DNA from: Patescibacteria group bacterium
GTDB lineage: Bacteria > Patescibacteriota > Patescibacteriia > JAHIZJ01
Reading direction: 5' to 3'
Assembly: GCA_041661625.1 (NCBI GenBank)
Contig: JBAZUB010000002.1
Coordinates: forward strand, 28,059-92,058
DNA: 64,000 bases
This document shows, in pieces, positions 27,124 through 63,979 of this stretch. Within the stretch, counting starts at the first letter, position 1; every line of letters starts with the position of its first letter. Under the pieces are notes generated by a model that made no database searches, was not told the origin of the DNA, and worked only from the letters and a program-made list of their open reading frames with translations. The position numbers and the translations under genes were made by a program.

Positions 27124-27169
27124 ATAGAGTCATTATACACCCAAAACAACGGCTTGTTTTAACCATTAT

Positions 27170-27700: not shown

Positions 27701-27750
27701 AGACGTGTTATTAGTTATTTAGAGTTGGTTACATTTATCACGATAAACAA

Positions 27751-27884: not shown

Positions 27885-27993
27885 GTACCATGCCACGGTT
27901 TGCGCCGTGGTTTAGGCACCAAATTGTAAGTAATTCCCTAATATCGGAATTACCTATATAATTGTACTATATTTTGTCGACATTTTCAATAAT

Positions 27994-29153: not shown

Positions 29154-29315
29154 ATGTCGACAAAGCAACAAAAAAGAGAAACCAGACAAGCGAGAATTCA
29201 TCTTAAGTATCACAAAATTCTTAAAGTCACGGCATTTAATCGAGGTATGACAATATCGCGCTTACTTGATGAAGTAATAGAGGATTATTTTGGAATTAAA
29301 GGAGAGAAGGAATAG
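29154..29315 (+). CDS. ribbon-helix-helix (Arc/CopG-like) small DNA-binding protein (53 aa)
   Basis: Hand-translated ORF MSTKQQKRETRQARIHLKYHKILKVTAFNRGMTISRLLDEVIEDYFGIKGEKE; beta-strand/helix/G-x-T-x-S/helix pattern of RHH fold; below ORF-track cutoff. Confidence 0.4.
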   Translation: MSTKQQKRETRQARIHLKYHKILKVTAFNRGMTISRLLDEVIEDYFGIKGEKE

Positions 29316-29582
29316 TGTGACCGGCAAAGATAGTCTGATAATAGAGCAGGATATTATTTGAATGATGGTTGGGGAGTGTATTCAAATAGCCATAAAATCT
29401 TCGAAGGAATGATTTCTAGTAATGCATACAAACAAGATCAGCCCCAAGTCAGTTATCAATACGCGGGCCGGGTAACTGACGATAGCGACTATTTGAATTA
29501 TGCATTTGATATGCTATTTGAAGAAATTATGAAGCAAAACAACTTATTGACAACTAATGACAATTAGGATTATACTGTAATC

Positions 29583-29765
29583 ATGGAATTTCTTACTAGA
29601 GATGAGGTAGCCAAATACTTCAGGGTGCACCCCCGTACGGTTATGCGCTGGCTCAAACAGGGCAGTCTTAGGGGCTACAAATTAGGCACAGGTAAAACCG
29701 CCCTACTTCGCATATCCAAGTCCGAGATTGAAAGATTTATGGAAAAATCTAAGATCACAAAATGA
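29583..29765 (+). CDS. excisionase-family helix-turn-helix DNA-binding protein
   Basis: 60 aa; LTRDEVAKYFRVHPRTVMRWLKQGSL matches HTH_17/Xis family; 4-nt overlap with recombinase start. Confidence 0.7.
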   Translation: MEFLTRDEVAKYFRVHPRTVMRWLKQGSLRGYKLGTGKTALLRISKSEIERFMEKSKITK

Positions 29766-45900: not shown

Positions 45901-46828
45901 AAGCAGTCAGAATCATCCATTCCGGTCGGATATTATTCTTCTTCAAATTGTGCACCAACTTCAATCGGCGCACCAGCTTGCGTTTGCGGTTTAAGGACGC
46001 GGTACGCATCTCGGTCTCGAGCTCGGAAATCAGCCCATCCATATCAATCACGTCGAGCAGGTGACGGACCGCTTCGGCGCCGATGCTAGCCTCGAAGACA
46101 TGGCCGTACTTGAGCGATAAGTCTTGATAAGTGCTTTCCGAGATTATTTGCAATCGTTTCAGGCTGCGCAGTTCCTTGCGGGCCAATTCAACTAAGGCGT
46201 CCAACTCCTTGATCTGTTCGTCTTTGAGCTTGGCATTGGCGGCCAATTCATCGGCCAGCATCTTCTCGTCGGGTTTGCTGGCATGGCGCTGGCGGGTTTC
46301 GTTGGCCAGGCGATTGAAGTTATTCTCAATCTGTTTTTTCTTCGATTGGCCCTCGCCGTCGATTTGCTTCAGGCTTTCCTGGCGCAGGTCCTCGTCGACC
46401 TTGGTAATAATAAAATTGGCGAAGTAGATAACCTTCTCAAGCTCCTGGGCGGATAGATCAAGCACTAGGCCGATCTTGGATGGCACGCCGCGGAGAAACC
46501 AGATGTGTGAAACCGGCGCGGCCAGATCGATATGACCCATGCGCTCACGGCGGACGATACTGCGGGTCACTTCCACGCCGCATTTGTCGCAAATAATGCC
46601 CTTGTAGCGAATCCGCTTGTATTTGCCGCAGTAACATTCCCAATCCTTAGATGGGCCAAAAATCTCTTCGGCAAACAAGCCGTCTTTTTCCGGTTTCTGA
46701 GTGCGGTAGTTGATGGTTTCCGGTTTGGTTACCTCGCCGTACGACCATTTGTGGATGTCGTCAGGAGAAGCCACCTTTAACCGGATGGCCCGGAAGTCCG
46801 GACTCTTCGATTCGTCTTGGTGGGGCAT
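42974..46828 (-). CDS. rpoC: DNA-directed RNA polymerase subunit beta'
   Basis: 1284 aa; zinc-binding CYCGKYKR...CDKCG, NADFDGD catalytic motif, canonical beta' throughout. Confidence 0.97.
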
Positions 46829-49800: not shown

Positions 49801-50271
49801 GGCGCCGTAGTAACGGCGGCCGCGATAGAGCTCCGAAGTAAAAAACACTCCGGCTGATCGGATCAGCTGGGATACTACGACGCGCTCAATGCCATTGATA
49901 ATGAAGGTGCCGCGGTCAGTCATCAACGGAAAGTCGCCCAAATAGACCTCTTGTTCCTTGATTTCACCGGTTTTCTTGTTGACCAGTCGGCAATTGACCC
50001 GGAGAGCGGCCTCATAGGTCAGATTCTTGGCTTTGGCCGTATTTTCGTCGAATCTGGGCTCATCCAGGTAGTAATTCTCGAAGTATAACTCAAGATTCCG
50101 GCCAATATACTCTTGGACGGGTGAAATCTCTTCAAATAGCTCTTTTAACCCCTCACGAAAAAACCAGTCATACGACTTGCGCTGGATTTCGATCAGATTG
50201 GGTAACGATATTGCTTCGCGCAGGGGCTTAAAGTACTTGCGCTCCTGCCTTTTAGTATGCAATTGAGACAT
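46837..50271 (-). CDS. rpoB: DNA-directed RNA polymerase subunit beta
   Basis: 1144 aa; canonical beta subunit blocks (e.g. [38 protein letters not shown]). Confidence 0.97.
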   Translation of the reverse strand: [1144 protein letters not shown]

Positions 50272-50379: not shown

Positions 50380-50408
50380 ATGATAACACAAAAAACCAAG
50401 TTGTCAAC
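50380..50408 (-). promoter_or_regulatory. Candidate rpoBC promoter on minus strand (TTGACA-17-TATCAT with upstream TG)
   Basis: Hexamers read on reverse complement ~110 nt upstream of rpoB start. Confidence 0.45.
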
Positions 50409-50532
50409 ATATACGGTTCAGGGTGTCAAAAACGTACTAAAAAAACCTAATATTAGCCAATTAGTTGAAATTTTTGGCTAACGGTAAATAAAATGAACAC
50501 TTTATTGTGCACAGTCAATAGACAAGTTATCC

Positions 50533-50578
50533 ACAGTTATTATTTAGAAAATGAAACCAGGCTCATATGTGAGCCTGG
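50533..50578 (-). terminator. Rho-independent terminator after giant gene A (ccaggctca tatg tgagcctgg + TTTCATTTTCT on minus strand)
   Basis: 9-bp stem, U-tract; 34 nt downstream of gene A stop. Confidence 0.6.
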
Positions 50579-50611: not shown

Positions 50612-53600
50612 CTAACGCAATTCGTATTTCATGTAATAGGCCGATACGATCTTCTGCTTGATCAGACGCCCCGAAAGGTTAAGACAGGGCATATATGCGT
50701 AACACGTACCCCGATATTTATCACCACTGGCGCAGATATTAACATATGTATTATCAATACAAACCTGGCTTGGCGTGTCGCTATAGGGGTAATCCGGGTC
50801 TACCAGATAGGCCGCTCCGGTGCAGGATCCATTAAGATAGTAATTGGTGCCATACGCATCAGCCGAAACCTCGGTAGAATTGGGCGGACAAATCAATCCA
50901 CCGGCTGCATATGCCAAACTGCTAGAAATGGCGGAGCCGGTATCGTACCAGAATTTAACGCCGGTTGCCGTGTTGTCTCTGGTGGTGCCGGTGGTATAGA
51001 TATAACGCCCGAGGCAGACATCGGTACCGATTTCGCAGACACTTATCGAAACCGGCTTATCGCGACCTTGAAGTATCAGGTGGTTAGGAATACCGACCTT
51101 GCCGGAAAAAGTCGCTGCCCATCCGGTGCCGTCCTGTTGAGCGTACAGGGCCGAGCCCGACGCATTATTGGCATATATGCCCAACCCATCATTAGCATTG
51201 CCCGTGTTTGATGATCCAGCATTGATAGTTAACTTGGCATTGGGTCCGGTTTGTCCAATGCCGACCTTGCCGGTTCCGGTTATGTTTAGATCGCTTCGAC
51301 CCTGTGTTCCGAGCGACAGTATTTTATTTTCGTAGGAACCCACGTAGGCTTCTCCGGTGCCCGCTATGGAAATTTCCAGCCCGTCCCCGGCCGTTTGTCC
51401 GGTGTTCGTATTTTGCAGCAGCAGTACCGTGGGTGAGGCCGTGTCTTTGTACATATTCAGGAGAGACCTAGGAGTTGTTGTGCCCACGCCAACATTACCG
51501 CCCGTGAGAATAGTGATTCGGTCTTCGTTGCCACTACCATTTGCTAAGCGCAGGTCATTGCCGGCAGTGTACACACTGGCATAACCGGCCGCCGGCTTGA
51601 ACTTCAATAAACTGCCGGTGGTGCTAAACTGTATGTTGCCGGCAACGGTAAGTTTCTCGGTCAGGGTAGCGGTGCCAATGCCTACGTTGGTTCCATTATC
51701 AAATATTTGGGAGTCGCCCAGTGTGGTGCCGGCCGTGAATTTTGGTAAATAGTTGATTGTGCCCGAACCACCAATTCCGCCGCCACCCAGGTCGTCAGTT
51801 TCGCATGTCACCGACCCGTCAGCCGCGATTGCTCTAATCGAACTGCCGGCCGCGCAATCGGAAAAATATTTGGTCGTGCCATCCAGCTTGTATATGCTGC
51901 TCGCTATCGCTAAGCCGCCGCTATTGTTCAAGCGCAGATACTCGACACCGCCCTTGTAGAATCTAATCCCCTCCTTGCCTTCGATGGTCAGCGCTTGATT
52001 TGGCGTAAGATTGCTGGCGACTCCAATTAGACCGATTCGATCAGTTGTCATGCCGCCAATGATGAGCGCGTCAGCATCAGATCGCGCGCTGACTTGGCCC
52101 GAGAAGTACCCCGCATAACCAGCCGCGTTAGTCTGCTCACCGTAGATGGCCGCGTTAGCCGAATTGTTTTTTACCGATAGTTGCGTTGAATCACCAATAT
52201 TATTATGCCCAATTGCCACCTTGTCAGTCGCCTCATTGTTGGGATTGATAGTGTTGGCGCTGGCACCGGCTTCCCAGAGGCTAGACCCTCCAGCTATGGC
52301 CCAAGAGAGATTGCCCGAGCCATCGTTCTTTAAATAGGTACCTACACCACCCTGCGCATTTGGCCAAGAGTAGGTAATGTTTCGTAATTTAATGATATTG
52401 CCCGTGGAGTCGACCTGGAACTGGTGGCTGCTGCCGACCGTGAGAAGGGAAGTGGGGGCGGTATCACCAATGCCAACATTGCCGCCGGTCAAAATAGTGA
52501 TACGGTCTTCGTTGCCATTACCATTAGCTAGGCGCAGATCAGTGCCGGTGGTATATATGCTGGCGAAACCGGCGGTCGGTTTAAATTTCAGTAAACCGCC
52601 GGTTGTACTTAGTTGAATGTTGCCTGCTATGGTAAGCTTTTCAGTCATCGTGGTGGTTCCAATGCCAACATTGCCATTCATCAAGGCGGTTCGCCCCGAG
52701 AAGTAACCGGCGAACCCCGCGGCGTTCAGCTGTTCAGCATAAATTGCCGAATTAACAGAATTATTATAGGTGGCGAAAGCGGTCAGATCACCCTCGGTTG
52801 CTTGACCTACCCGGACCTTGTCATCGATCTCGGCCGGATAAACACTGTTAACGCCATTATGCGTCCAGAGAGTGTTGATCTGCAATCGATGATTCCCGCC
52901 CCCGACATTAATTTCCTGAGTCCAGATGCCGGTGCCGTTAACTAATTCGCTGCCGAGATATTCTGGAGTAGCATCTGCCGCGCTAGTCATGACCATGAAA
53001 GTGTCAGAACCAGCCGCACCGAAATCGTCGAATTCACAGGTTACGGTGCCATCAGCCGCGATGGCTCGGATAGAATTGCCAGCCGCACAGTCCGCAAAAA
53101 ACTTGGTTGTGCCGTTCAGCTTGTACAGTCCACCCGACATAGCCAAGTCGCCGTCGATACCCAGCTCTTGATTTGGGCTGACGGTATTGATACCCATCCG
53201 GCCTCCCATAACAACGGTTTTACCAGAAAAATATCCTGCATACCCATTGGCGTTAGCTTGTTCGAAATATCCTGCGGCATTCAATGAGCCGTTCTTCACG
53301 GATAATTGCGTCGAATCACCAATATTATTGTGCCCAATTGCCACCTTGTCGGTCGTCTCGTTAATCGGATTGATCGTGTTCGCGGTCGCGCCGGCTTCCC
53401 AGAGGCTGGCGCCCGCACCCTGATCGACGCCACAGAAAAGATTGCCATTGGCGTCGACGTCGACCGTGTTATTTCCGGTGCAGCCTGTGAGGCCGGGGAT
53501 TCTGATGGTGCCATCTCCGAGTATGCGCATTCGCTCAGCAAAAGCGCCGGTGTTCGTAGTGAAGAAAATCATGTCAAAGGTGTTGGATCCGAGTTGCCGC

Positions 53601-54349
53601 TCGACCGCAATCCGGCCGTTCGAACCATCCGGCCCCCAGGGGAATCCCGCCGAACCGCCAAAGCGCCAGTCGATACCCATGGCGTTCGAACCGTTGTTAT
53701 CCAAACTATCGATGGTAAACATAGACTTGTAGCCGACCACGCTCGCTCCAACGGCCAGTGGCGCGCTGGGATTGTTTGTGCCAATGCCGACATTCCAGCT
53801 CAAGTTGGTGGGATACAGATTCGCGCCAACCTGGGTCCAAAAACCGCCACCTCCGCCACCCCCGCAACCCAACGTTCCCTCGTTGTCCGTGCTGACACCG
53901 CCGCAACCGGCACCGCCATTGATCAGATTCTGCACGGATAGTTGGCCCACATTCGCTCCAGCCTGAGAGATTTTTACTTTACCTTGCAGTTCAATGTGAT
54001 CACCTATGTCGCCGGGTGAAACATAGAGCGTGTTGGCGCCGAAGTTAATATGCGGTTTGGCCAAGTCGGCGCCATTAAACCAAAAAATACCAGTATTGTC
54101 GTACGGTATGTACAGGCTACCGGATGAAACGCTCAGGAATTCCCCCGCCACGGTCAATGAGCCATTCTTTGTTTGAGGTGAAGACGAGGTATTGATCGGC
54201 GCGGCGACATTGCCCCCCGGCGGTGCACTTTCGGGAGGAGACCAAGCCGCTAGCGCTTGGCCAACCGGTGCCGATAATGCCACGCACAAGAGCACCGGCA
54301 TGACCATTAGGTACACCAGCTTTGAGCCACGGAATAGATTTGATTTCAT
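50612..54349 (-). CDS. giant secreted repeat protein (paralog A), phage tail-fibre-like repetitive modules
   Basis: 1245 aa; signal peptide MKSNLFRGSKLVYLMVMPVLLCVALSAPVGQALA; shared N-terminal module with B and D; Gly/Asn/Thr-rich repeats. Confidence 0.8.
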   Translation of the reverse strand: MKSNLFRGSKLVYLMVMPVLLCVALSAPVGQALAAWSPPESAPPGGNVAAPINTSSSPQTKNGSLTVAGEFLSVSSGSLYIPYDNTGIFWFNGADLAKPHINFGANTLYVSPGDIGDHIELQGKVKISQAGANVGQLSVQNLINGGAGCGGVSTDNEGTLGCGGGGGGGFWTQVGANLYPTNLSWNVGIGTNNPSAPLAVGASVVGYKSMFTIDSLDNNGSNAMGIDWRFGGSAGFPWGPDGSNGRIAVERQLGSNTFDMIFFTTNTGAFAERMRILGDGTIRIPGLTGCTGNNTVDVDANGNLFCGVDQGAGASLWEAGATANTINPINETTDKVAIGHNNIGDSTQLSVKNGSLNAAGYFEQANANGYAGYFSGKTVVMGGRMGINTVSPNQELGIDGDLAMSGGLYKLNGTTKFFADCAAGNSIRAIAADGTVTCEFDDFGAAGSDTFMVMTSAADATPEYLGSELVNGTGIWTQEINVGGGNHRLQINTLWTHNGVNSVYPAEIDDKVRVGQATEGDLTAFATYNNSVNSAIYAEQLNAAGFAGYFSGRTALMNGNVGIGTTTMTEKLTIAGNIQLSTTGGLLKFKPTAGFASIYTTGTDLRLANGNGNEDRITILTGGNVGIGDTAPTSLLTVGSSHQFQVDSTGNIIKLRNITYSWPNAQGGVGTYLKNDGSGNLSWAIAGGSSLWEAGASANTINPNNEATDKVAIGHNNIGDSTQLSVKNNSANAAIYGEQTNAAGYAGYFSGQVSARSDADALIIGGMTTDRIGLIGVASNLTPNQALTIEGKEGIRFYKGGVEYLRLNNSGGLAIASSIYKLDGTTKYFSDCAAGSSIRAIAADGSVTCETDDLGGGGIGGSGTINYLPKFTAGTTLGDSQIFDNGTNVGIGTATLTEKLTVAGNIQFSTTGSLLKFKPAAGYASVYTAGNDLRLANGSGNEDRITILTGGNVGVGTTTPRSLLNMYKDTASPTVLLLQNTNTGQTAGDGLEISIAGTGEAYVGSYENKILSLGTQGRSDLNITGTGKVGIGQTGPNAKLTINAGSSNTGNANDGLGIYANNASGSALYAQQDGTGWAATFSGKVGIPNHLILQGRDKPVSISVCEIGTDVCLGRYIYTTGTTRDNTATGVKFWYDTGSAISSSLAYAAGGLICPPNSTEVSADAYGTNYYLNGSCTGAAYLVDPDYPYSDTPSQVCIDNTYVNICASGDKYRGTCYAYMPCLNLSGRLIKQKIVSAYYMKYELR

Positions 54350-54387: not shown

Positions 54388-54511
54388 TAAATAATCCCGC
54401 CGACACAATGTGGTGCATGCAGCCATAACAAACCAGACCCATAAATGGGTCTGGTTATTCTATTTCGGTTTTAGTTTATTTCTGATTGTTGGCCTGGATG
54501 AATCAGGCTGG

Positions 54512-57500
54512 TTATTTGACCTTTTGCTCCAGTCGATCGAGGCGGGCGGTGAGTTCATCGATCGTATGGCTCTGCTTATCGATAATCTGACTCTGTTCCT
54601 GGATCGCCTTGACCATTGGGGCCATCAAGTCGTTGTAACGAAGATTTCTGGTCTTTTCGGCATCGTTATCTATCAATAGCATGTTGTATTCATCGGGCGA
54701 CACGAGCTTCTCAATATCCTGGGCGATGAAGCCGAAGTCAGTCTTGCCGTTGCCGTTCTTCATATTGTACTGCACCGGGCGCAAGCTGTTTATGAAACCC
54801 AGCCCGAGCGAACTATCCTTGATGTTCTCTTTCAACCTGACATCCGAAGGGGAGGAGAATGCAACCTGGATAGTGGCCGATGAAATACTGGCGTTACCAA
54901 TCCGGACTGAATTAGATGCGCTCGTGGTCGCCCCATATCCGATATTGATGGTGTTCTCCAGTGCTCCCGAGGTTGGCCCAGATCCGCGTCCAATGCCCAC
55001 ATTGAAATTTCCGGAGGTAACATTCTCGAGCGCCAGGTAGCCAGCGGACACATTGTATCCGCCGGATACATTGTTGAGCTGACTTCGAGTTCCGATCGCG
55101 ACGTTACCGGCGGCCGTCGTAAGGGCTGTTAGAGCTGATCTACCCACAGCTACGTTGGATGAACTAGTGGTAGATTTCAGTGCTTGAAAGCCAACCGCCG
55201 TGTTTTCGAATGTGTTGGTAATACTAGACAGGGCCTGATAACCGATGGCGGTTTGCTGCGTAGCAGTCGTAATGCTAGCGCCAGCGCCGTTGCCAAATAT
55301 AGTGTTACCATCAACATTGCCCGAACCGCGCCCAGCCCGCAGACCATTGATTGTGATATCACCGTCGAAATATCCGGCCCACTCACCTGCGCCGGTGTTC
55401 CCGCCTACCGAGCCATAGACGCCCGCGCAGGTGCCGGTGCAATTCGACCCCGCCACTAATTCGCCATAGACACCGCTGCCATTTACTCCGGAACCACTGT
55501 TGCCTTTGTAGCCGGATACTGCGTTGTAGTTCGAACTGGAATTGTTATAGGCTGAAACGGTGTTATTTACTGTGTAACCACTCGCGCCGGTTGCGGAAAC
55601 GGTTAACAACGACGCGGGACTAGTGTTGCCGATACCGACCTGACCACCGTTCAACATATACATCACATTGGTCGAAGAGTTATTCCGGATATTCCATCCA
55701 CCGCTGCCGAAATTGGTATACATGACATTATCAGTCCAGCGCGGCCACATCCAGGCATTCCATGCGCCGGCGCTGTCTTTGGCTTCCATAATTTGTCCAT
55801 TGCCTTGCCCGATCGTGCCGTTAACATGAAGAGTCCGCTCGGGAGTTATAGTATTAATGCCAACATTGCCGCCGGTTAAAATGGTAATACGGTCTTCGTT
55901 GCCACTGCCGTTAGCCAGTCGCAGGTCGGTGCCGGCGGTATATATACTGGCAAAACCGGCGGTTGGTTTTAGTTTCAGCTGGCCTCCCGCCGTGCTTAGT
56001 TGAACATTGCCCGCGATCGTAAGTTTTTCGGTAGGTGTTGTCATGCCGATGCCGACGCTACCCGCCCCAGTGATGCTTAGATCGTTTCGGCCCTGGGTGC
56101 CGAGAGATAAAGATCTATTTTCATATGAACCAACATAGGCGTCGCCCAACGCTGCGACCGAAACTTCCAGACCATCACCGTTGGTATTGCCAGTGGTCGC
56201 GTTTTGCACTAATAGAACCGAGCTCCCTCCAATTGGGTTATATAAATCCAGCCGGGAGGCAGGTGTGCTTGTGCCGATACCGACATTACCGGACGTATCA
56301 ACAAACAAGCCTTCATTACCGCCATCATTCGAAACCCAATAGCCGCTCATTCTTAAGTTGGCTCTGGCAATATGATCGCCCAGGTTATCTCCCACGGCTC
56401 CGCCATCGTCAGTCTCGCAAGTCACAGTACCGTCAGCAGCGATAGTTTTGATCGACAGATTTGCACCGCTGCAGGTATCGGCAAAAAACTTTGTTGCGCC
56501 GTCCAGTTTATAGATGCCGCCGGACATTGCCAGGTCGCCACTTAGTCCAAGTTCCTGGTTCGGTGTGGCGGTGCCAACGCCGAGGCGGCCGCCCATTACC
56601 ACGGTTTTGCCTGATAGGTAAGCGGCATATCCCGCGGCATTGGCTTGTTCAAAGTAGGCCGCGGAGTTAGCTGAATTATTTTTTACCGACAACTGGGTTA
56701 AATCGCCGATGTTGTTATGCCCAATCGCCACCTTATCCGTCGCCTCGTTTATCGGATTGATCGTGTTCGCGCTCGCGCCTACCTCCCACAAATTGGAACC
56801 GCCGGCGGGCAACCAGGTTAAATTGCCCGAGCCGTTATTGGTGAGCACAGTACCGGCTCCGCCTTGGCCAACAGGCCAAGAGTAGGTTACGTTTCTAATT
56901 CGGATGGGATTGCCATTAGAATCAACTTGAAACAGGTCGCCGCTACCGACCGTCAAAAGGGAGGCGGGGGTGGTATCGCTAATGCCAACATTGCCACCGG
57001 TTAAAATGGTAATACGGTCTTCGTTGCCATTGCCGTTAGCCAGCCGCAGGTCGGAACCAGTGGTATACAAACTGGCAAAACCAGCTGACGGTTTTAATTT
57101 CAACAAACTACCAACCGTACTGAACTGAATGTTACCAGCAATCGTTAGTTTTTCAGTCAGGGTAGTGGTCCCAATGCCGACATCGCCGTCCATCATCGCG
57201 GTTTTACCGGAAAAATAGGCGGCATAACCGGAGGCGTAGGCCTGCTCAAAGTAGGCCGCTGAGTTAACTGAACTATTTTTTACTGACAACTGCGTTGAAT
57301 CGCCGATAACATTGTGTCCAATGGCCACCTTATCGCTGGCTTCATTTACTGGATTGATCGTATTCGCGGTCACACCGACTTCCCAGAGACCACTGCCACC
57401 CGAGGACGCGATTTGGATCTGTTCATTGCCGCCGGCATTTAGTTTTGTCAGAGTAATATTCGAACCGGCCGATAATTTATCCTGGAGGTAACTAGCGATC

Positions 57501-58756
57501 GAATCCGTGGCCGATGCCTTAACCAATTCATCGGTACCGCCCAGGCCACCCGTTAGGTCAGTGGCGCAGATTAACTGCCCGTTGTTGTCCGCTTTTACCG
57601 TGTTGGCGCCAAGACAAGCGCCGCCAGCCAAGCTAGCTATTCGGGCGCTGCCCACGACGTCGAGTTGATAACTTGGATCGGTCGTTCCAATGCCGACGAA
57701 ACCGCCGAAGATAGAGAAGTCATAATTGTTCGACAGTATTAAGTCAAAATGTCGCGGGCTGTTTTTTGATCCCAAGCCAAGCTTGGCTGCGGTTAGGCCA
57801 TTGTTTAGCCACCAAATATATGGATTTTCGGCTATCGTCGGGTTTTCTTCATTAAGCATCAGCGTGTTTTGGTCGAAAGTCAGCGTGCCCCAGTTTGTGT
57901 CCCAAGGTTTGTTTTCAGAGACTCTGAAACCACCAGAAAAGTAGCCGGCATAACCGAATTGGCTATTCTGTTCTGCGTAGATGGTCGAATTGATGGAATT
58001 ATTAATAACCGACAACTGGGTGGAATCACCGATATTATTGTGCCCAATGGCCACCTTATCGGTCGTCTCGTTTATCGGGTTGATCGTGTTGGCACTCGCG
58101 CCAGCTTCCCACAGGCTAGAGCCACCACCCGAAGCGGCGATCTGAATCTGCTCGTTACCGCCCGGATTTATGGTGGTTAAAGTTACGTTCGCGCCGGCCG
58201 ACAATTTATTAATCAGATAATCCGCCGTCGTATCGAGGTTGGATATTTTTACCAATTTATCATCGCCGCCTGGTCCGACGCCCACCTCATCTGTCGTACA
58301 TACCAGTTTGCCAGCCAGGTCGGTTTTTAGAGTATTTACACCCGTGCATCCAGCCACATTCGGGAATGTTAGATCGCCCTGTAGTTCAATATGATTGTTA
58401 ATCAAGTCACCCGGAGAAATATATAGCGTATTGGTTAGAAAATTTATATGCGGTTGTTCCAAATGGGGCAGGTCGGTCTCGTCGGACCAAAAAATACCCT
58501 TTTCACTACCCGGAATGTACAAATCCCCAGTTGCTAATTTCAGAAAATTGCCGGCCACGGTCAGATCGCCCTGCTTGGTCTGGGGTGTGGCTGATGTATT
58601 GATCGGCGCGGCTACGTTGCCTCCCGGCGGGATGGTTGTCGGGACGGTCCAGGACGCGAACGCCTGCCCGGCAAGTGTAAATAGTGCCACGCATAATAAC
58701 ACCGGCATAGCCACTGGGTACATCAGCTTGAAGCCTCTAAATAGGTTGGGTTTCAT
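54512..58756 (-). CDS. giant secreted repeat protein (paralog B) with C-terminal intramolecular-chaperone (peptidase S74-like) domain of phage tailspike/tail-fibre proteins
   Basis: 1414 aa; signal peptide; C-terminus SSPSDVRLKENIKDS...GFIAQDIEKLVSPDEYN...coiled coil ELTARLDRLEQKVK. Confidence 0.8.
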   Translation of the reverse strand: MKPNLFRGFKLMYPVAMPVLLCVALFTLAGQAFASWTVPTTIPPGGNVAAPINTSATPQTKQGDLTVAGNFLKLATGDLYIPGSEKGIFWSDETDLPHLEQPHINFLTNTLYISPGDLINNHIELQGDLTFPNVAGCTGVNTLKTDLAGKLVCTTDEVGVGPGGDDKLVKISNLDTTADYLINKLSAGANVTLTTINPGGNEQIQIAASGGGSSLWEAGASANTINPINETTDKVAIGHNNIGDSTQLSVINNSINSTIYAEQNSQFGYAGYFSGGFRVSENKPWDTNWGTLTFDQNTLMLNEENPTIAENPYIWWLNNGLTAAKLGLGSKNSPRHFDLILSNNYDFSIFGGFVGIGTTDPSYQLDVVGSARIASLAGGACLGANTVKADNNGQLICATDLTGGLGGTDELVKASATDSIASYLQDKLSAGSNITLTKLNAGGNEQIQIASSGGSGLWEVGVTANTINPVNEASDKVAIGHNVIGDSTQLSVKNSSVNSAAYFEQAYASGYAAYFSGKTAMMDGDVGIGTTTLTEKLTIAGNIQFSTVGSLLKLKPSAGFASLYTTGSDLRLANGNGNEDRITILTGGNVGISDTTPASLLTVGSGDLFQVDSNGNPIRIRNVTYSWPVGQGGAGTVLTNNGSGNLTWLPAGGSNLWEVGASANTINPINEATDKVAIGHNNIGDLTQLSVKNNSANSAAYFEQANAAGYAAYLSGKTVVMGGRLGVGTATPNQELGLSGDLAMSGGIYKLDGATKFFADTCSGANLSIKTIAADGTVTCETDDGGAVGDNLGDHIARANLRMSGYWVSNDGGNEGLFVDTSGNVGIGTSTPASRLDLYNPIGGSSVLLVQNATTGNTNGDGLEVSVAALGDAYVGSYENRSLSLGTQGRNDLSITGAGSVGIGMTTPTEKLTIAGNVQLSTAGGQLKLKPTAGFASIYTAGTDLRLANGSGNEDRITILTGGNVGINTITPERTLHVNGTIGQGNGQIMEAKDSAGAWNAWMWPRWTDNVMYTNFGSGGWNIRNNSSTNVMYMLNGGQVGIGNTSPASLLTVSATGASGYTVNNTVSAYNNSSSNYNAVSGYKGNSGSGVNGSGVYGELVAGSNCTGTCAGVYGSVGGNTGAGEWAGYFDGDITINGLRAGRGSGNVDGNTIFGNGAGASITTATQQTAIGYQALSSITNTFENTAVGFQALKSTTSSSNVAVGRSALTALTTAAGNVAIGTRSQLNNVSGGYNVSAGYLALENVTSGNFNVGIGRGSGPTSGALENTINIGYGATTSASNSVRIGNASISSATIQVAFSSPSDVRLKENIKDSSLGLGFINSLRPVQYNMKNGNGKTDFGFIAQDIEKLVSPDEYNMLLIDNDAEKTRNLRYNDLMAPMVKAIQEQSQIIDKQSHTIDELTARLDRLEQKVK

Positions 58757-58890: not shown

Positions 58891-61800
58891 CTATGGATAC
58901 GGGAAAGCACCCATGTCGGTGCCGGCACCAAAGGCCGGGTTGCCCGTATTAATGCACGGTGATCCAGCCAACAGGTGATAGTCATTAGCGGCTGAGTTGA
59001 TAAACCTTGGATCGGCATTAATATTGTTTGACCCGAAGCCCGACCAGCCGCCTTGAATGTCGGAGTATTGAACCTTGGCACATAGCGGCCAGGGATTAGA
59101 CATCTGCCCGATGCTGGGACTAATTGGCGCGGTATTGGCCCAAACGATACTGCTGTCAAATACCGGATTTTGAGCCAAGCAGGCGCCGAGGTTAGTGGAA
59201 TTATTAACGAATACGCCGCCGCCTTCACCCGAGGTCGTGTTATACGCTACGGTGTTATTCCTGACATTTATCAGATTGCCCGGAGCATCGTACAATACAG
59301 TCAACAACATGCCTCCACCATAACCGTAAGTCGGTAAAATTGTGTTTCTGAACACTGCATTCTTTTCAATCAATGCGCCTCCCCCGCCGGCGAAAGCTAT
59401 TCCAGCTCCCCCAGATTCGGTCGGCCCGATAGTGTTATTTGAAATAGTATTATTCGAGATATTGGCATATCCGCCCCAGTGGTTGATACCGCCGCCGGAA
59501 TATTTTACAGCATTGTTGCTAATAGTATTGTTGGTAATTGTGGTCGATGTACTAGCGTTGCCACCCGACGAGATACCGCCACCATAGCTACCGCTGGTAC
59601 CGGAGGTATTCTGCGTGATGGTGTTGCCGGTAATAGTGAAAGTACCGCCGTTATATGTCGCCGAAACACCAGCGCCGGCACCGTCAGTAACGTTGCTGGT
59701 GACAGTATTGCCGGAAAAAGTTACGGTTCCGCCTATGTCCGCACCACCACCACCACCGCGATTACTTACGCCAGTTCCAAGGGCGGTATTTCCAGTCAGC
59801 GTATTATTGGAAACGGTTCCACTGCCGCGGAAGTAAATACCCCCGCCAAACTTACCGTCATTACTGGTGATTGAGTTACTACTGATATTAGCCGTGCCAG
59901 CCTGACAGTTAACGCCCCCACCGTTTGATCCGCTGCCGCCACCGTGGTGGTTGATGTTGTTATTTTGAATCGTGGCCGAAACGGTACCCGCCAGACACAT
60001 AATACCGGGGCCGCCAGCAGTACAGTTCATAGTGCCAGACATGCCATCTCTAATAGTGTTCCAGGTGATAGTCGCCGATCCGCCCCACACATAGACGCCG
60101 CGGCAATTGCCATAAATTAAGTTATCGTTAATCGTGGCATTGCTGCCTGTTTCAACTTTTACACCCGCGGTCACGCAATTGTATATTTCATTATTTCGGA
60201 CCGTGGCGGTAGCGTTGCCATTGACGGTCACACAGTATGGTTCGACCGGATCGCCCCAGGGGTTATTGAACCCCACGATATAGAAACCCTCCAGAATCGA
60301 ACCGGTGCCGCCGTTGAAAACAACATGCGGAATTTCATTATTCTGTGGAATCATGTCCTGACTTTTTAGAGTAATTGATTTGCCCTGGAAGTCGATTATA
60401 CCCTCATTCCAGAAATACCAGCCACCAGTAGAGTCAGTCACAAGTACATTACCAGCGACCGTGTCAGTGTCGTTGATGGCGGCGGTAATGGTGGCATAGT
60501 TTTCCACTTCGGTCATATTGGCGGCGCTGATGTAGCGTCTGACCCGGCGCGGACAGGCGCCACAGTCGGCAGCACAGCTCGAACACGTTTCTGGCGCTAT
60601 GCACTGTCCATTACCGCAACAGCTGCCGCAATCTCCCGGACAGGTCGAACAGGTTTCACCATTGTTGCACACGGTGTCACCACAGAAGCACGCGCCACAA
60701 TCTCCCGGACAAGAAGTACAATTCTCGCCAAAATTACAGCTACCATCCCCACAGCAGTTGCCGCAATCAGCCGAGCAATTCGAACAATTTTCCGGTGCCA
60801 CGCAGGCGCCGTTGCCGCAACAAGCACCACAATCGGCTGGACAGGTTGAACAGGTTTCACCGTTATTACATTGTGTGTCGGGACAATTGGGGACATCGGC
60901 AATAGTAATGGTAATCGATTCCGTATCGGTGGCGCTGGCCGTATCGGTAGCGGTGAAGACAATATTGGGATAACTGCCCGATTGGGTATAGCTTGGAGTC
61001 CAAGTAAAGGTAGCCTCAAACTTTCCCAGTCCGGCGTTATAGGAAGTGTTGCTTAGGTTTGAACCAGATGGTTTATTAGCTACGCTGATGGTCACCGTGT
61101 CACCCGGTGAGTCTGGGTCGGCCGCACGCACCACAAATGACATAGCGACTCCTTCAGAGCCGTTTTTATTGCCGATCGGATCCAGTACGGGAGGTTGGTT
61201 GGTGTTGGCAATAGTGATAGTAATTGATTCCGTATCGGTGGCGCTGGCCGTATCGGTAGCGGTGAAGACAATATTGGGATAACTGCCCGATTGGGTATAG
61301 CTTGGAGTCCATGTGAAGGTAGCCTCAAATTTACCGGTGCCAGCGTTGTAGGTCGTGTTGCCCAAGCTGGAGCCAGATGGCAGATTAGCGGCGGTTATTG
61401 TAACACTATCGCCGGTAGCTTGATCTGGGTCGCTCGCGCTGATCGTGAAAGACATGGCCGTGCCCTCGGCGCCGTTCTTGTTTCCGATCGGATCGAGCAC
61501 GGGGGGTTGGTTCACCGGAGCGGCACCGAACTTCTTCAATGCTTTAATGCCATTATTGGTGTTTATTCTGACCCTAGTGGCGTTAGGATCGCCCGGCGGT
61601 ACCAGCACTATACTGTATGTTGAGCCATTTTGTTTGACGCGTAATTCGGAAGTTGTCGGACCGGCGGGCACGCAGGCAAAATGAAGTGTTTGGATTCCGT
61701 CATATACTCGGAGGCCGCAGTCGGTTTCGCCGGGAAGTGGGGTGGTTCCCCAAGCCAAGTCAAAAGCTGCCCCATTGTTGGTAAACACGGAGCTACCCAG

Positions 61801-62826
61801 ACCCGTCCAAGTGGTTCCGTTCGTTGAAGTCGCGAAAGTGTTGGTGACATTATTTCCAGCCGCAATCCACTTACCATCGCCCCAGGCCACAGATGTACCA
61901 CCACCACCGGGGGGACTAAAAATATCAAGACCACCCAACCCAACCCAATTGATGCCATCTATGGATGTGGCAATAACGTTGATATCCGTGCCGACATTAT
62001 ATGTATGCGCAACCGCAACCCACCTGCTGCCATTCCAGGCCAAGTCCATACCACCATAACCATCAGCATTAGTAAATATTGAATTGCCCAAACCTGTCCA
62101 ATTAATACCGTCATAAGAGTACGCGATGGTGTTGGCTCCATATCCTACCGCTACCCACATTGTTTCATTCCAGGCAATACCAACGCCGGTATTAGAAAAT
62201 ATTCCTTTACCCAAGCCAGTCCATGAGATGCCGTCATATGAATAGGCGATAGTATTGTTGCCTCCTCCCACCGCAACCCACATTGTTCCGTTCCAAGCAA
62301 CGTCTAAACCGCTCTCGCCTGGATTAGAACCGAATATATTTACACCACCACGGCCAACCCAATTAATACCATCGGCTGATGTAGCAAAATTATTAGGAGC
62401 ATTTCCTACTGCTACCCATTTGTTATCGCCCCAAGCCACGCCATATCCACCGCCTTGTTGGGTCCATTGATTATAATCAAAAATCGAATCACCTAGTCCC
62501 GTCCAGTCGACACCATTCGTAGAATGGGCAACGGTGTTTTCACCCACCCCTACTGCGACCCACATGCTTCCGTTCCAGGCTACACCTTGACCCCATTGGG
62601 AAAATATTGCTTTGCCTTGGCTGGTCCAATTAGTGCCATCCAGGGAAGTGGCCATGGTGGCGTCGTCGCCACGTCCGACTGCTATCCATCGGCCAGCGGC
62701 CACCACTGGTTGGTTCATCATTCCAATTCCTGTCAGCGAGAAAACAAATACCGCGCAGAGGCGGATCAGCCACCATTGGCGACTCTGATGTGCGAGTATA
62801 GTTGTTAGCTCGGACTTCGGGTTCAT
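58891..62826 (-). CDS. giant mosaic surface protein (paralog C): WxAVG beta-propeller-like repeats, tandem Ig/cadherin-like domains, Cys-rich repeats, parallel beta-helix repeats
   Basis: 1311 aa; N-terminal hydrophobic anchor/signal; ~9 repeats of W(V/I)AVG..DG.NWTG; two near-identical PPVLDPIGNKNG..DPD domains; NGETCSTCPxDCG repeats; NNTISNN/GGG beta-helix-like repeats. Confidence 0.8.
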   Translation of the reverse strand: MNPKSELTTILAHQSRQWWLIRLCAVFVFSLTGIGMMNQPVVAAGRWIAVGRGDDATMATSLDGTNWTSQGKAIFSQWGQGVAWNGSMWVAVGVGENTVAHSTNGVDWTGLGDSIFDYNQWTQQGGGYGVAWGDNKWVAVGNAPNNFATSADGINWVGRGGVNIFGSNPGESGLDVAWNGTMWVAVGGGNNTIAYSYDGISWTGLGKGIFSNTGVGIAWNETMWVAVGYGANTIAYSYDGINWTGLGNSIFTNADGYGGMDLAWNGSRWVAVAHTYNVGTDINVIATSIDGINWVGLGGLDIFSPPGGGGTSVAWGDGKWIAAGNNVTNTFATSTNGTTWTGLGSSVFTNNGAAFDLAWGTTPLPGETDCGLRVYDGIQTLHFACVPAGPTTSELRVKQNGSTYSIVLVPPGDPNATRVRINTNNGIKALKKFGAAPVNQPPVLDPIGNKNGAEGTAMSFTISASDPDQATGDSVTITAANLPSGSSLGNTTYNAGTGKFEATFTWTPSYTQSGSYPNIVFTATDTASATDTESITITIANTNQPPVLDPIGNKNGSEGVAMSFVVRAADPDSPGDTVTISVANKPSGSNLSNTSYNAGLGKFEATFTWTPSYTQSGSYPNIVFTATDTASATDTESITITIADVPNCPDTQCNNGETCSTCPADCGACCGNGACVAPENCSNCSADCGNCCGDGSCNFGENCTSCPGDCGACFCGDTVCNNGETCSTCPGDCGSCCGNGQCIAPETCSSCAADCGACPRRVRRYISAANMTEVENYATITAAINDTDTVAGNVLVTDSTGGWYFWNEGIIDFQGKSITLKSQDMIPQNNEIPHVVFNGGTGSILEGFYIVGFNNPWGDPVEPYCVTVNGNATATVRNNEIYNCVTAGVKVETGSNATINDNLIYGNCRGVYVWGGSATITWNTIRDGMSGTMNCTAGGPGIMCLAGTVSATIQNNNINHHGGGSGSNGGGVNCQAGTANISSNSITSNDGKFGGGIYFRGSGTVSNNTLTGNTALGTGVSNRGGGGGADIGGTVTFSGNTVTSNVTDGAGAGVSATYNGGTFTITGNTITQNTSGTSGSYGGGISSGGNASTSTTITNNTISNNAVKYSGGGINHWGGYANISNNTISNNTIGPTESGGAGIAFAGGGGALIEKNAVFRNTILPTYGYGGGMLLTVLYDAPGNLINVRNNTVAYNTTSGEGGGVFVNNSTNLGACLAQNPVFDSSIVWANTAPISPSIGQMSNPWPLCAKVQYSDIQGGWSGFGSNNINADPRFINSAANDYHLLAGSPCINTGNPAFGAGTDMGAFPYP
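60899..61520. repeat. tandem direct repeat, 2 x ~310 bp (first ~105 bp of each copy nearly identical) inside gene C
   Basis: gcaatagt(a/g)at(g/a)gtaat(c/t)gattccgtatcggtggcgctggccgtatcggtagcggtgaagacaatattgggataactgcccgattgggtatagcttggagtcca present at 60899 and 61209. Confidence 0.8.
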
Positions 62827-62842: not shown

Positions 62843-63979
62843 TTAGTTCAATACCAGCCACATCTGTCCGACCGCGGGACTGGCGGGATCGCCTTGGGCC
62901 GCGGTGCGAACCTGAATAACTAAGCCGTCAGTGGCCTTTATCGTACCACCCTGAACTTCGAGTTTAGTGCCGGCTGCCGGGTTCTCCACCCCAATACCCA
63001 CCGCGCCATTCATGATGACAGTTTTGCCGGAAAAGTATCCGGCAAAACCCTGGCCGCCGGTGATCTCGGCGTATAGAGTCTTGTCATTGGCAGCCGTGGC
63101 CGCATTGGTCACTGACAAACGAGTATTGTCACTAATGTCCAGTCGGCCAATTGCCACCTTATCAGTAGTTTCGTTAGTTGGCGCAATGGTGTCTGCAGTC
63201 GAACCAGCCTTCCAAATGCCACCGCCAGCCGCAACAACAGCCCAGGAAAGATTGCCGCTGCCGTCGTTCTTTAAGTATGCGTCATTATCCGCCCCTAGGT
63301 TATTATTCGGCCAATTGTAAGTGACGCCCTTGATCCGGATGATATTACCCGTGGCGTCGACCATGAATTTGTCGCCATTGCCGACGGTGAGAGGCGATAG
63401 AGGGGTGATATCGCCAATGCCAACATTCGCGGTTGGGTTAGTCGGGTAAAGATCGTTCACGTCCTGGGTCCAGAAGCCACCACCAGCCGCGCCGCCGCAG
63501 GTTATTGTGCCATCGGCATCGGTGCTAAGACCGCCGCAACTGACCATATTGGGATTCTGGATACTTAGCGTGGCTAGATTAGTCGGACTGGCCGCGGTGA
63601 TCTTTACGGCGCCTTGCAGCTCAATATGATCGCCCGTTTCGCCAGGGGAAAGATATAGTGAGTTAGCTCCAAAGTTTATGTGGGGCTTAGCCGTGTCTGA
63701 CACGTTGGACCAAAAAACACCCCGGTCCGCCGTGGAAATAAAGAGATCGCCAGTAGCTACCCGGAGATAATTACCAGCTATAGTCAGGTCGCCATTTTTG
63801 GTTTGAGGGGTGGCCGAAGTATTGATTGGCGCAGCCACATTGCCGCCCGGCGGAGCAGTGTCAGGAGCGGTCCAGGATGCCAGCGCCCGGCCGGCCAGAG
63901 TTGAAAATGCCAAGCATAAAAGCACTGGCATAACCGTAAGGTACATCAGCTTTGAGCCTCGAAATAGATTTGATTTCAT
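62843..63979 (-). CDS. secreted protein (paralog D) sharing N-terminal module of A and B, short form (378 aa)
   Basis: MKSNLFRGSKLMYLTVMPVLLCLAFSTLAGRALA signal peptide and first ~120 aa ~75% identical to A; 16-nt gap to gene C suggests co-transcription. Confidence 0.7.
   Translation of the reverse strand: MKSNLFRGSKLMYLTVMPVLLCLAFSTLAGRALASWTAPDTAPPGGNVAAPINTSATPQTKNGDLTIAGNYLRVATGDLFISTADRGVFWSNVSDTAKPHINFGANSLYLSPGETGDHIELQGAVKITAASPTNLATLSIQNPNMVSCGGLSTDADGTITCGGAAGGGFWTQDVNDLYPTNPTANVGIGDITPLSPLTVGNGDKFMVDATGNIIRIKGVTYNWPNNNLGADNDAYLKNDGSGNLSWAVVAAGGGIWKAGSTADTIAPTNETTDKVAIGRLDISDNTRLSVTNAATAANDKTLYAEITGGQGFAGYFSGKTVIMNGAVGIGVENPAAGTKLEVQGGTIKATDGLVIQVRTAAQGDPASPAVGQMWLVLN

What the first reader, a model, noticed from the sequence alone, without database searches (positions are those of the whole stretch)
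58891..62826. Gene C is a domain mosaic with a recent ~310-bp tandem duplication and Cys-rich NGETCSTCPxDCG repeats
The protein carries about nine W(V/I)AVG…(T/S)xDGxNWTG repeats of beta-propeller type. Two tandem ~95-aa Ig/cadherin-like domains follow (PPVLDPIGNKNG…SATDTESITITIA). Their DNA copies at 60899 and 61209 are nearly identical over the first ~105 bp, so the duplication or gene conversion is recent. Next is a block of at least seven short Cys-rich repeats, then NNTISNN/GGG parallel beta-helix repeats. Such repeat arrays are hot spots for slipped-strand or recombinational length variation of a surface protein.
Basis: seen in the sequence. Interest (0 to 1): 0.55.

Follow-up and report, generated by a model that had tools for sequence, protein, structure and literature searches.

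The report
Mosaic surface protein with converted Ig pair
This is an ordinary but real 1311-residue, multi-module cell-surface protein of a Patescibacteria bacterium; its two tandem Ig domains are an old duplicate partly homogenised by a later gene-conversion event, not a recent duplication or an unstable repeat array.

Summary
The ORF at 58891-62826 (-) is real and is already in GenBank as MFA6198269.1, a Patescibacteria MAG "right-handed parallel beta-helix repeat-containing protein". The module order is: signal/anchor helix, 7-bladed Asp-box-like beta-propeller (7 blades, not ~9), a small beta domain, two He_PIG Ig domains, five 22-residue six-Cys units (5, not >=7), then a right-handed beta-helix with a C-terminal cap.

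The Ig copies lie 309 bp apart. Their 5' 60 codons are saturated at synonymous sites (pS 0.76). Their 3' 43 codons have pS 0.23 and pN 0, with an 86-bp perfect core. This points to an old duplication followed by a later gene-conversion tract.

The Cys units (47-71% DNA identity) and the propeller blades are old repeats. Tandem Repeats Finder reports no array of these units, and the one partial orthologue keeps the same arrangement of Cys units. Hot-spot length variation is therefore unsupported.

No full-length homologue exists among 5.8 billion proteins, and each module has its own set of relatives, so "mosaic" holds. The gene sits among three tail-fibre-like paralogues upstream of rpoB. I infer an N-terminally anchored adhesin or glycan-binding fibre with a fast-evolving beta-helix tip. 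It is a new member of a known kind, of low to moderate interest.

The parts
58891..62826 (-). Whole CDS, 1311 aa plus stop. It equals GenBank MFA6198269.1, 'MAG: right-handed parallel beta-helix repeat-containing protein [Patescibacteria group bacterium]'.
   Evidence: an identical CDS is present in the independent ENA contig L001
62692..62826 (-). N-terminal signal peptide or signal-anchor (aa 1-45). The only hydrophobic segment is aa 18-38, followed by VAA|G. An AAAGG Shine-Dalgarno-like motif lies about 7 nt upstream of the ATG, which is 16 nt after the stop of the upstream gene.
   Evidence: Kyte-Doolittle scan; read directly from the sequence
61741..62691 (-). Seven-bladed beta-propeller (aa 46-362). 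There are seven W[VI]A[VA][GA] + S.[DN]G..W (Asp-box-like) repeats spaced 41-51 aa apart.
   Evidence: AF2 pLDDT is mostly above 90; fold matches to propellers; no Pfam or NCBIfam model matches
61513..61740 (-). Small linker domain (aa 363-438). It is 57% identical over 68 aa to the N-terminus of the 205-aa secreted protein P0354. Its fold was not resolved (AF2 pLDDT below 50).
61207..61512 (-). Ig domain 1 (He_PIG), aa 439-540.
60898..61206 (-). Ig domain 2 (He_PIG), aa 541-643.
61207..61335 (-). Gene-conversion tract, copy in Ig1 (aa 498-540). The perfect 86-bp core is 61226-61311.
60898..61026 (-). Gene-conversion tract, copy in Ig2 (aa 601-643). The perfect 86-bp core is 60917-61002.
60553..60885 (-). 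Five 22-aa six-Cys units of pattern C-x4-C-x5-C-x2-C-x3-C-x2-C (aa 648-758), with one Phe spacer between units 3 and 4. Units 1/4 (82% aa identity) and 2/5 (73% aa identity) pair up, which suggests an old block duplication.
   Evidence: (D3); AF2 pLDDT about 70; 2920 50%-identity clusters carry the unit; no Pfam or NCBIfam model matches
58894..60546 (-). Neck (aa 761-860), right-handed parallel beta-helix (about aa 861-1250) and C-terminal cap (aa 1251-1311, with a sub-threshold choice-of-anchor-Q match).

Best explanation
Gene C encodes a secreted or N-terminally anchored, multi-module surface fibre of a Patescibacteria (CPR) bacterium.

Reading outward from the cell, the modules are: signal/anchor helix, 7-bladed Asp-box-like propeller, small beta domain, two He_PIG Ig domains, a stalk of five disulfide-knotted six-Cys mini-modules, and a regular right-handed beta-helix with a cap as the distal tip.

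I infer that it acts as an adhesin or glycan-binding protein, possibly glycan-cleaving, used to contact a host cell or substrate, together with the three tail-fibre-like paralogues that flank it.

The two Ig domains arose by an old intragenic tandem duplication. Later, a short tract of about 86-130 bp at their 3' ends was copied from one to the other by intragenic gene conversion.

Shown: the ORF, the module identities, the mosaic distribution of relatives, and the old-duplication-plus-conversion pattern. Inferred: the topology, the adhesin or glycan-binding role, and the joint action with the neighbouring genes.
For: - Modules: Pfam He_PIG and Beta_helix score above their cut-offs. The AF2 propeller model has pLDDT mostly above 90, and the beta-helix model is mostly above 85.
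- Repeat counts: 7 blades and 5 Cys units.
- Anchor: a single N-terminal hydrophobic segment and no C-terminal anchor.
- Mosaic: no full-length homologue exists and hits fall per module. None of the 120 hits listed for the C-terminal query (aa 644-1311) combines the Cys units with this beta-helix.
- Conversion: pS 0.76 in the 5' part against 0.23 in the 3' part of the Ig pair, with pN 0.20 against 0. The maximum chi-square is 35.6 and 0 of 2000 permutations reach it. The 86-bp perfect core has P about 0.0009.
- The Ig copies are each other's closest relatives, at 83% aa identity, against at most 49% for the listed hits that cover both Ig domains.
- Assembly: the CDS is identical in a second assembly, with 1 mismatch in 15,110 bp of overlap.
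- Surface or fibre context: the neighbours share a signal-peptide N-terminal module. The 1414-aa neighbour carries a Peptidase_S74 chaperone and hits PHROG tail spike and tail fibre families.
- The propeller fold recurs in phage fibres that carry an S74 chaperone and in giant-virus collagen-like proteins.
- The nearest solved structures to the beta-helix are polysaccharide lyases and phage tailspikes, though weakly.
- The orthologue fragment L002 keeps the stalk (88-90% aa identity) but diverges to about 40% in the distal beta-helix. pN rises from 0.07 to 0.41 and pS from 0.55 to 0.73-0.94.
Against: - No experimental or expression data are available.
- Fold matches for the beta-helix are weak (best E 5e-4, TM 0.2-0.3), and no catalytic residues were identified. 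Binding versus enzymatic activity is therefore open.
- The AF2 alignments were shallow (20-23 rows), and the Cys units reach only pLDDT of about 70.
- An alternative history gives the same pattern: a recent duplication whose 5' part was later overwritten from an outside donor. No such donor is in the window, but the rest of the genome was not searched.
- Whether the signal peptide is cleaved was not predicted with a dedicated tool.
- Co-function with the neighbours rests only on adjacency, which is conserved in L002.
Confidence: 0.7

Rival explanations
1. This is a recent tandem duplication of the ~310-bp Ig unit, as in the first reader's title. The 5' two-thirds then diverged fast under diversifying selection, while the 3' third stayed unchanged.
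For: The copies are adjacent, in frame and each other's closest relatives. The 3' 43 codons have no amino-acid change.
Against: Selection on the protein cannot saturate synonymous sites. pS is 0.76 in the 5' 60 codons against 0.23 in the 3' part, and pN in the 5' part is only 0.20, so pN/pS is well below 1 there.
Confidence: 0.07
2. The repeat blocks (blades, Ig pair, Cys units, beta-helix coils) form a contingency locus whose copy number changes by slipped-strand mispairing or unequal recombination, giving phase or length variation of a surface antigen.
For: The 86-bp perfect repeat spaced 309 bp apart is long enough for RecA-dependent unequal exchange (established knowledge), and recA is present in the window. 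The L002 contig breaks inside the Cys array, as assemblies often do at repeats. The conversion tract itself shows that the two Ig copies do recombine.
Against: Tandem Repeats Finder reports no array of these units in the gene region; its only rows in 58-64 kb are micro-repeats of 16-22 bp. Cys units are 47-71% identical and blades at most 75% identical at the DNA level. Two assemblies give the same copy numbers. The orthologue L002 has the same units 3-5 and the same spacer. No variant with a different copy number appeared in the searches of 5.8e9 proteins.
Confidence: 0.1
3. The near-identical tract is an artefact: a short-read assembly chimera or collapse between two diverged Ig copies.
For: The sequence comes from a metagenome-assembled genome, and reads could not be inspected.
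Against: The identical core (86 bp) is shorter than the final k-mer of 141 implied by the ENA contig name, and shorter than usual read lengths, so the graph is unambiguous. The frame is intact and the differences that flank the core inside the tract are all synonymous.
Confidence: 0.04
4. The pair is a template/variable-repeat pair of a diversity-generating retroelement, a system common in CPR bacteria, that mutagenises an Ig-like ligand-binding domain.
For: There are two repeats of about 130 bp at about 94% identity in a surface-protein gene of a CPR bacterium. That DGRs are frequent in CPR genomes is recalled from the literature and was not tested here.
Against: Within the tract all differences are synonymous, mostly at third codon positions, and of mixed base types (T/A, A/G, C/T); the one replacement (Asn/Asp) lies just past its end. 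This is not the adenine-specific, amino-acid-changing pattern of a DGR. Both copies are coding. No reverse transcriptase appeared among the 25 window ORFs scanned against Pfam, but not all ORFs were scanned.
Confidence: 0.02

Closest known systems
Bacterial and archaeal He_PIG / Big_9 / cadherin-like tandem Ig surface proteins (Pfam PF05345, PF17963)
   Same: The two Ig domains match He_PIG above the cut-off. They are 40-49% identical to tandem domains in many such proteins, including proteins of Methanomicrobiaceae and Methanolobus MAGs.
   Different: The target has only two copies, embedded between unrelated modules. Relatives usually carry 4-12 copies.
Right-handed parallel beta-helix repeat proteins of the PMP-like / 'choice-of-anchor Q' type (Pfam PF13229, PF05048, PF02415; NCBIfam NF041518)
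   Same: The coils are regular, of the N-x-I-x-x-N...GGG type. Pfam Beta_helix is matched. There is 27-35% identity over about 80% of the region to many such proteins, and the 60-aa C-terminal cap is shared with 33 of them.
   Different: The target itself does not reach the choice_anch_Q cut-off (15.4 against 25 bits). It does not hit Chlam_PMP. It has no C-terminal sorting signal.
Phage tailspikes, tail fibres and other receptor-binding proteins
   Same: It shares the elongated, modular build. The beta-helix gives fold hits to the P22, HK620 and Det7 tailspikes. The propeller fold occurs in phage fibres that carry an S74 chaperone. A conserved stalk with a divergent distal module is seen against the orthologue. 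The flanking genes are tail-fibre-like.
   Different: It lies on a bacterial chromosome next to rpoB/rpoC, ftsK and recA. The target has no PHROG hit. It has a signal/anchor sequence instead of a virion-attachment domain. There is no evidence of trimerisation.
Asp-box (BNR) / Ycf48-type and Kelch-type seven- or six-bladed beta-propellers
   Same: Each of the seven blades has the S-x-D-G-x-x-W motif. Fold matches include Ycf48 (5ojr, 8am5) and Kelch designs. BFVD matches include 'BNR repeat domain' and DUF6242 proteins.
   Different: No Pfam BNR, Kelch or DUF6242 model is matched even at E<=10. The only sequence-profile hits in the PDB are designed SAKe proteins. It belongs to its own large, uncurated family, shared by giant-virus contigs and bacteria.
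Myxococcus-type cysteine-rich repeats (TIGR02232 / Pfam DUF4215; recalled from memory)
   Same: These are short, tandem, Cys-rich extracellular repeats that are frequent in Myxococcota surface proteins. Many relatives of the target's units come from Myxococcota.
   Different: The target's units match no Pfam or NCBIfam model. Proteins with 10-14 such units match none either. The spacing C-x4-C-x5-C-x2-C-x3-C-x2-C appears to be a distinct family.

Membership tests
Pfam He_PIG (PF05345) Ig-like domain | HMM score above the gathering cut-off (24 bits) | tested here: met
   60.8 bits, E 1.8e-16, two stretches at aa ~441-539 and ~543-643
Pfam Beta_helix (PF13229) right-handed parallel beta-helix | HMM score above the cut-off (25.9 bits) and a beta-helical fold | tested here: met
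   68.1 bits, E 8.9e-19, 3 stretches. The AF2 model shows regular three-strand coils, with 10-residue block mean pLDDT mostly above 85.
NosD (PF05048) periplasmic copper-binding protein of the nos cluster | Genomic association with the nosZ/nosF/nosY genes | tested here: not met
   The HMM scores 28.2 bits, just above the 23.6-bit cut-off, but on the same stretch as Beta_helix, which belongs to the same clan. The neighbours are tail-fibre-like genes, rpoB and rpoC; no nos genes are present.
NCBIfam choice-of-anchor Q domain (NF041518) | HMM score above the cut-off (25 bits) | tested here: not met
   15.4 bits, E 0.017, at aa 1280-1305.
BNR/Asp-box beta-propeller | Repeated S-x-D-x-G-x-x-W motif in a propeller blade, plus a match to a BNR family model | tested here: inconclusive
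   The motif is present in all 7 blades and the propeller fold is predicted. No Pfam BNR or BNR_2 hit appears at E<=10.
Kelch-repeat propeller | Match to a Kelch family model | tested here: not met
   There is no Pfam Kelch hit. Only designed SAKe proteins match the sequence profile.
Phage tail fibre / tailspike | Homology to phage tail protein families and a prophage or virion context | tested here: not met
   The target has no PHROG hit at E<=1e-3. The context is chromosomal. Only weak fold resemblance is seen.
Tandem-repeat contingency (slipped-strand) locus | Head-to-tail repeats of high DNA identity, and copy-number variants among relatives | tested here: not met
   Tandem Repeats Finder reports no array of the Ig, Cys or blade units. 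Unit identities are 47-79% apart from the 86-bp core. The second assembly and the orthologue fragment show the same arrangement.
DGR variable/template repeat pair | Adenine-specific, non-synonymous mismatches, plus a nearby reverse transcriptase | tested here: not met
   All differences inside the tract are synonymous and of mixed base types. No RT was seen among the ORFs scanned, though the scan was incomplete.
Sortase- or autotransporter-anchored adhesin | A C-terminal LPXTG signal or a beta-barrel translocator | tested here: not met
   The C-terminus is ...GAGTDMGAFPYP, with no hydrophobic tail. The only hydrophobic segment is aa 18-38.

The most novel reading that the evidence does not exclude
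The locus (three tail-fibre-like paralogues plus this mosaic protein) could be a cellular counterpart of a viral receptor-binding apparatus. In that reading, an episymbiotic Patescibacteria cell recognises its host with fibres built from the same module pool as phage and giant-virus fibres: an Asp-box-like propeller family shared with giant-virus contigs, S74-chaperoned fibres, and a tailspike-like beta-helix. Specificity would be changed by swapping or fast evolution of the distal beta-helix, with intragenic conversion keeping the stalk domains uniform.

Along the way it exposes two large domain families with no curated model: the 22-aa six-Cys unit (about 2,900 50%-identity clusters) and the propeller family.
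Probability: 0.15. Interest if true: 0.55.

Novelty: new member of a known kind. Interest (0 to 1): 0.27.

Why it matters
Taken alone the finding matters little. Large mosaic surface proteins with internal repeats are common, and this one is already annotated.

It is useful in three modest ways:
- It is a clean, statistically supported example of intragenic gene conversion between tandem Ig domains in a CPR genome, which shows that homologous recombination acts within such genes.
- It flags two widespread extracellular modules that have no Pfam or NCBIfam model. One of them is shared between giant-virus contigs and host-dependent bacteria (Patescibacteria, Dependentiae).
- With its tail-fibre-like neighbours and its conserved-stalk, variable-tip pattern, it is a reasonable candidate host-attachment factor for an episymbiont lineage in which such factors are largely unknown.

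Tried and rejected
- Tandem Repeats Finder on 58-64 kb reported no array of the Ig, Cys or blade units; its only rows were micro-repeats of 16-22 bp.
- Pfam at E<=10 and NCBIfam gave nothing for the propeller, the linker or the Cys block taken alone.
- A phmmer search of the whole protein against PDB sequences gave no hit.
- A profile of the propeller hit only designed SAKe proteins.
- PHROGs gave no hit for the target.
- The search for related loci with the full protein found no confirmed relative in genome contigs or metagenome contigs. Copy number therefore could not be compared across genomes by that route.
- The third homologue search (linker + Ig pair) returned only proteins of 520 aa or fewer and no orthologue fragment carrying the Ig pair. 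The conversion could not be dated against the L002 lineage.
- Two literature searches found nothing specific.
- I first read the propeller as giant-virus-derived. I softened this after relatives of similar identity (44-55%) turned up in Patescibacteria, Dependentiae and Victivallales genomes.
- The DGR reading, the assembly-artefact reading and the reading of a recent duplication followed by diversifying selection were all rejected; see the rival explanations.
- The precomputed 'PF22847' tags on the propeller relatives are 'faint' Glyco_hydro_43_rel hits and did not reproduce with hmmscan, so I did not use them.

Full report
**1. What is in the sequence**

A single uninterrupted ORF occupies 58891-62826 on the minus strand and encodes 1311 aa. 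Its ATG lies 16 nt after the stop of the upstream gene and is preceded by AAAGG. The identical protein is in public databases as MFA6198269.1, 'MAG: right-handed parallel beta-helix repeat-containing protein [Patescibacteria group bacterium]', on a 311,612-bp contig.

An independently assembled ENA contig (ERZ27249449 k141_1052516, 267,894 bp; locus L001) carries the same CDS base for base. It differs from the window at 1 of the 15,110 overlapping bases. The window is a bacterial chromosome: rpoB (46837-50271), rpoC (42974-46828), ftsK and recA lie just downstream.

**2. Module map**

- aa 1-45 hold the only hydrophobic segment of the protein (aa 18-38), followed by VAA|G. This is a signal peptide or a signal anchor.
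- aa 46-362 hold seven repeats, not about nine, of W[VI]A[VA][GA] followed by S.[DN]G..W, spaced 41-51 aa apart.
  - An AF2 model built on a 20-row alignment of relatives gives an all-beta domain with pLDDT mostly above 90.
  - Foldseek finds only generic propellers in the PDB: designed SAKe Kelch proteins, LRP6 YWTD domains and Ycf48.
  - Among viral models it gives much better matches (E 1e-26 to 1e-14). These are proteins of giant viruses such as Hokovirus HKV1 and Klosneuvirus KNV1, and phage proteins annotated with an intramolecular chaperone auto-processing domain, DUF6242, BNR repeats or as tail fibre.
- aa 363-438 form a small domain that AF2 could not model. It is 57% identical to the N-terminus of P0354, a 205-aa secreted protein.
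- aa 439-540 and 541-643 are two He_PIG Ig domains.
- aa 648-758 are five units, not at least seven, of C-x4-C-x5-C-x2-C-x3-C-x2-C, with 30 Cys in all. A lone Phe separates units 3 and 4.
- aa 761-1311 are a neck, a regular right-handed beta-helix (Pfam Beta_helix 68.1 bits; AF2 block-mean pLDDT mostly above 85) and a 60-aa cap.
  - The cap is shared with 33 of the 120 proteins listed in the search with the C-terminal part, aa 644-1311.
  - Fold matches of the helix to solved structures are weak (best E 5e-4, TM 0.2-0.3). They are PL6 alginate lyases and the P22, HK620 and Det7 tailspikes.

**3. The tandem Ig pair**

The DNA copies are 60898-61206 and 61207-61512. Overall identity is 79.5%, which is not a recent duplicate. 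The identity is strongly mosaic.

In coding sense, the first 60 codons differ at 62 nucleotide positions, with Nei-Gojobori pS 0.76 (saturated) and pN 0.20. The last 43 codons have pS 0.23 and pN 0. A maximum chi-square scan places the break at alignment column 186 of 312. The statistic is 35.6, the Fisher P is 4e-10, and 0 of 2000 permutations reach it.

Inside the homogenised part there is a perfect 86-bp run, 61226-61311 = 60917-61002. Given 8 mismatches spread uniformly over 130 bp, its probability is about 0.0009.

Protein-level selection cannot lower synonymous divergence, so the simplest history is an old tandem duplication followed by one or more gene-conversion events over the 3' end of the domain. 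The two copies are each other's nearest relatives, at 83% aa identity. The listed hits that cover both Ig domains are at most 49% identical. The duplication is therefore intragenic.

No third copy that could have acted as donor exists in the window. The rest of the genome was not available to me.

All differences inside the tract are synonymous and of mixed base type. This excludes a DGR template/variable pair.

**4. The other repeats are old**

Pairwise DNA identity of the Cys units is 47-71%. Units 1/4 (82% aa) and 2/5 (73% aa) pair up, which suggests an ancient block duplication. The best blade pair is 75% identical over 110 nt (D2). Tandem Repeats Finder reports no array of these units; its only rows in 58-64 kb are three micro-repeats of 16-22 bp.

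The only orthologue I could find is a 2,555-bp contig from another sample (L002, ERZ27256924), cut at its 5' end inside Cys unit 3. It has the same units 3-5, the same Phe spacer and the same junction with the neck. It is followed by a homologue of the window's next gene.

Nothing therefore supports the claim that these arrays vary in length. The 86-bp core is the only plausible substrate for unequal exchange.

**5. Mosaic nature**

Among 5.8e9 proteins the only full-length match is the protein itself. Of the 120 best hits, 116 match only the propeller repeats, typically 20-29 repeats per protein, which corresponds to several propellers in tandem. Four match only the Ig domains.

With the C-terminal 668 aa as query, 83 hits match only the Cys units and 37 only the beta-helix. 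None has both.

The Cys unit occurs in 2,920 50%-identity clusters (E<=1e-3; 1,029 at E<=1e-10). It appears in proteins from Myxococcota, Pacebacteria and Aenigmarchaeota. It is found next to lamin-tail, SdrD-B, PLD-like and cohesin domains. No Pfam or NCBIfam model covers it, even in proteins with 10-14 units.

The propeller family also lacks a model. It is very abundant in IMG/VR contigs, including GVMAG giant-virus bins: at least 456 confirmed stretches. Two of its closest members sit on 359-kb and 505-kb contigs with a PolX-ligase fusion, PCNA, eIF-1a, cathepsin and RING genes. It is also found at similar identity (44-55%) in Yanofskybacteria, Paceibacteria, Levybacteria, Dependentiae and Victivallales genomes. 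I therefore draw no conclusion about the direction of any transfer.

**6. Context and likely function**

The gene is the second of four co-oriented genes: 62843-63979, the target, 54512-58756 and 50612-54349. The other three share a 100-aa N-terminal module (signal peptide plus SWT.P...PPGGNVAAPINTS..PQTK.G.L) at 66-70% identity.

The 1414-aa protein ends in a Peptidase_S74 intramolecular chaperone and hits PHROG tail spike and tail fibre families. A terminator-like hairpin (50578-50557) and an 11/12 promoter-like site (50407-50380) separate this cluster from rpoB. These are consensus matches only.

Against L002, amino-acid identity falls from 88-90% in the Cys stalk and neck to about 40% in the distal beta-helix. 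pN rises from 0.07 to 0.41, and pS from 0.55 to 0.73-0.94. The stalk is therefore conserved and the tip evolves fast, or has been exchanged, as in viral receptor-binding proteins. Alignment error in the low-identity part may inflate pS.

From these facts I infer an N-terminally anchored or secreted surface fibre whose propeller and beta-helix bind, or possibly cleave, glycans on a host or substrate surface. This is an inference, not something shown here.

**7. Verdict**

The near-identity is a gene-conversion tract inside an old duplicate, not a recent duplication. The repeat arrays show no sign of instability.

The protein is a new member of a known kind, a mosaic extracellular adhesin-like protein, and is already annotated generically. 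Interest is low to moderate. The most interesting by-products are the two uncurated module families and the tail-fibre-like gene cluster.

Noticed in passing
window 62843-63979 (-), 54512-58756 (-), 50612-54349 (-): Three paralogous large genes flank the target. They share a 100-aa N-terminal module (signal peptide plus SWT.P...PPGGNVAAPINTS..PQTK.G.L) at 66-70% identity. The 1414-aa one carries a C-terminal Peptidase_S74 chaperone and hits PHROG tail spike and tail fibre families. This is a tail-fibre-like gene cluster on a Patescibacteria chromosome directly upstream of rpoB.
   Followed up: partly
target aa 46-362 (window 61741-62691); loci L003, L004, L005-L078, L079-L155: The seven-bladed propeller belongs to a large family with no Pfam or NCBIfam model. 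It gave at least 456 confirmed stretches in IMG/VR, many of them in GVMAG giant-virus bins or on contigs of 100-570 kb. Two close members lie on contigs with NCLDV-like genes. The family also occurs at similar identity in Patescibacteria, Dependentiae and Victivallales genomes.
   Followed up: partly
target aa 648-758 (window 60553-60885): The 22-aa six-Cys unit CG[DN]GxCxxxE[TN]CxxCxxDCGxC is found in 2,920 50%-identity protein clusters (E<=1e-3), in Myxococcota, CPR and DPANN proteins. It sits next to lamin-tail, SdrD-B, PLD-like and cohesin domains. No Pfam or NCBIfam model matches it.
   Followed up: partly
L002 1-1836 against window 58894-60720: The orthologue fragment shows a gradient of divergence. 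The Cys stalk and neck are 88-90% identical at the aa level (pS about 0.55, pN 0.07). The distal beta-helix is about 40% identical (pS 0.73-0.94, pN up to 0.41). This suggests a fast-evolving or exchanged tip module.
   Followed up: partly
window ~14000-30000: This block has low GC (38-43%, against about 50-54% elsewhere). It carries sugar-modification genes (a DegT aminotransferase fused to NUDIX, and an epimerase) and a SIR2_2-domain gene; a large serine recombinase gene at 29762-31513 (+) lies at its right-hand edge. It looks like an integrated island.
   Followed up: partly
window 27798-27918 (-): There is a full-length match to the Rfam LOOT RNA (RF03000): 85.9 bits against a gathering score of 46.4, E 7.8e-15. 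It lies inside the low-GC block.
   Followed up: no
target aa 366-433 (window ~61528-61731): The small linker domain is 57% identical to the N-terminus of the unrelated 205-aa secreted protein P0354. It has no family assignment and AF2 did not resolve its fold.
   Followed up: partly
window 50380-50578 (-) and 54431-54456: A terminator-like hairpin (50578-50557) and a near-consensus sigma-70-like promoter (50407-50380, 11/12 with extended TG) lie between the 1245-aa gene and rpoB. A perfect 11-bp-stem palindrome lies between the 1414-aa and 1245-aa genes. These are consensus matches only.
   Followed up: no
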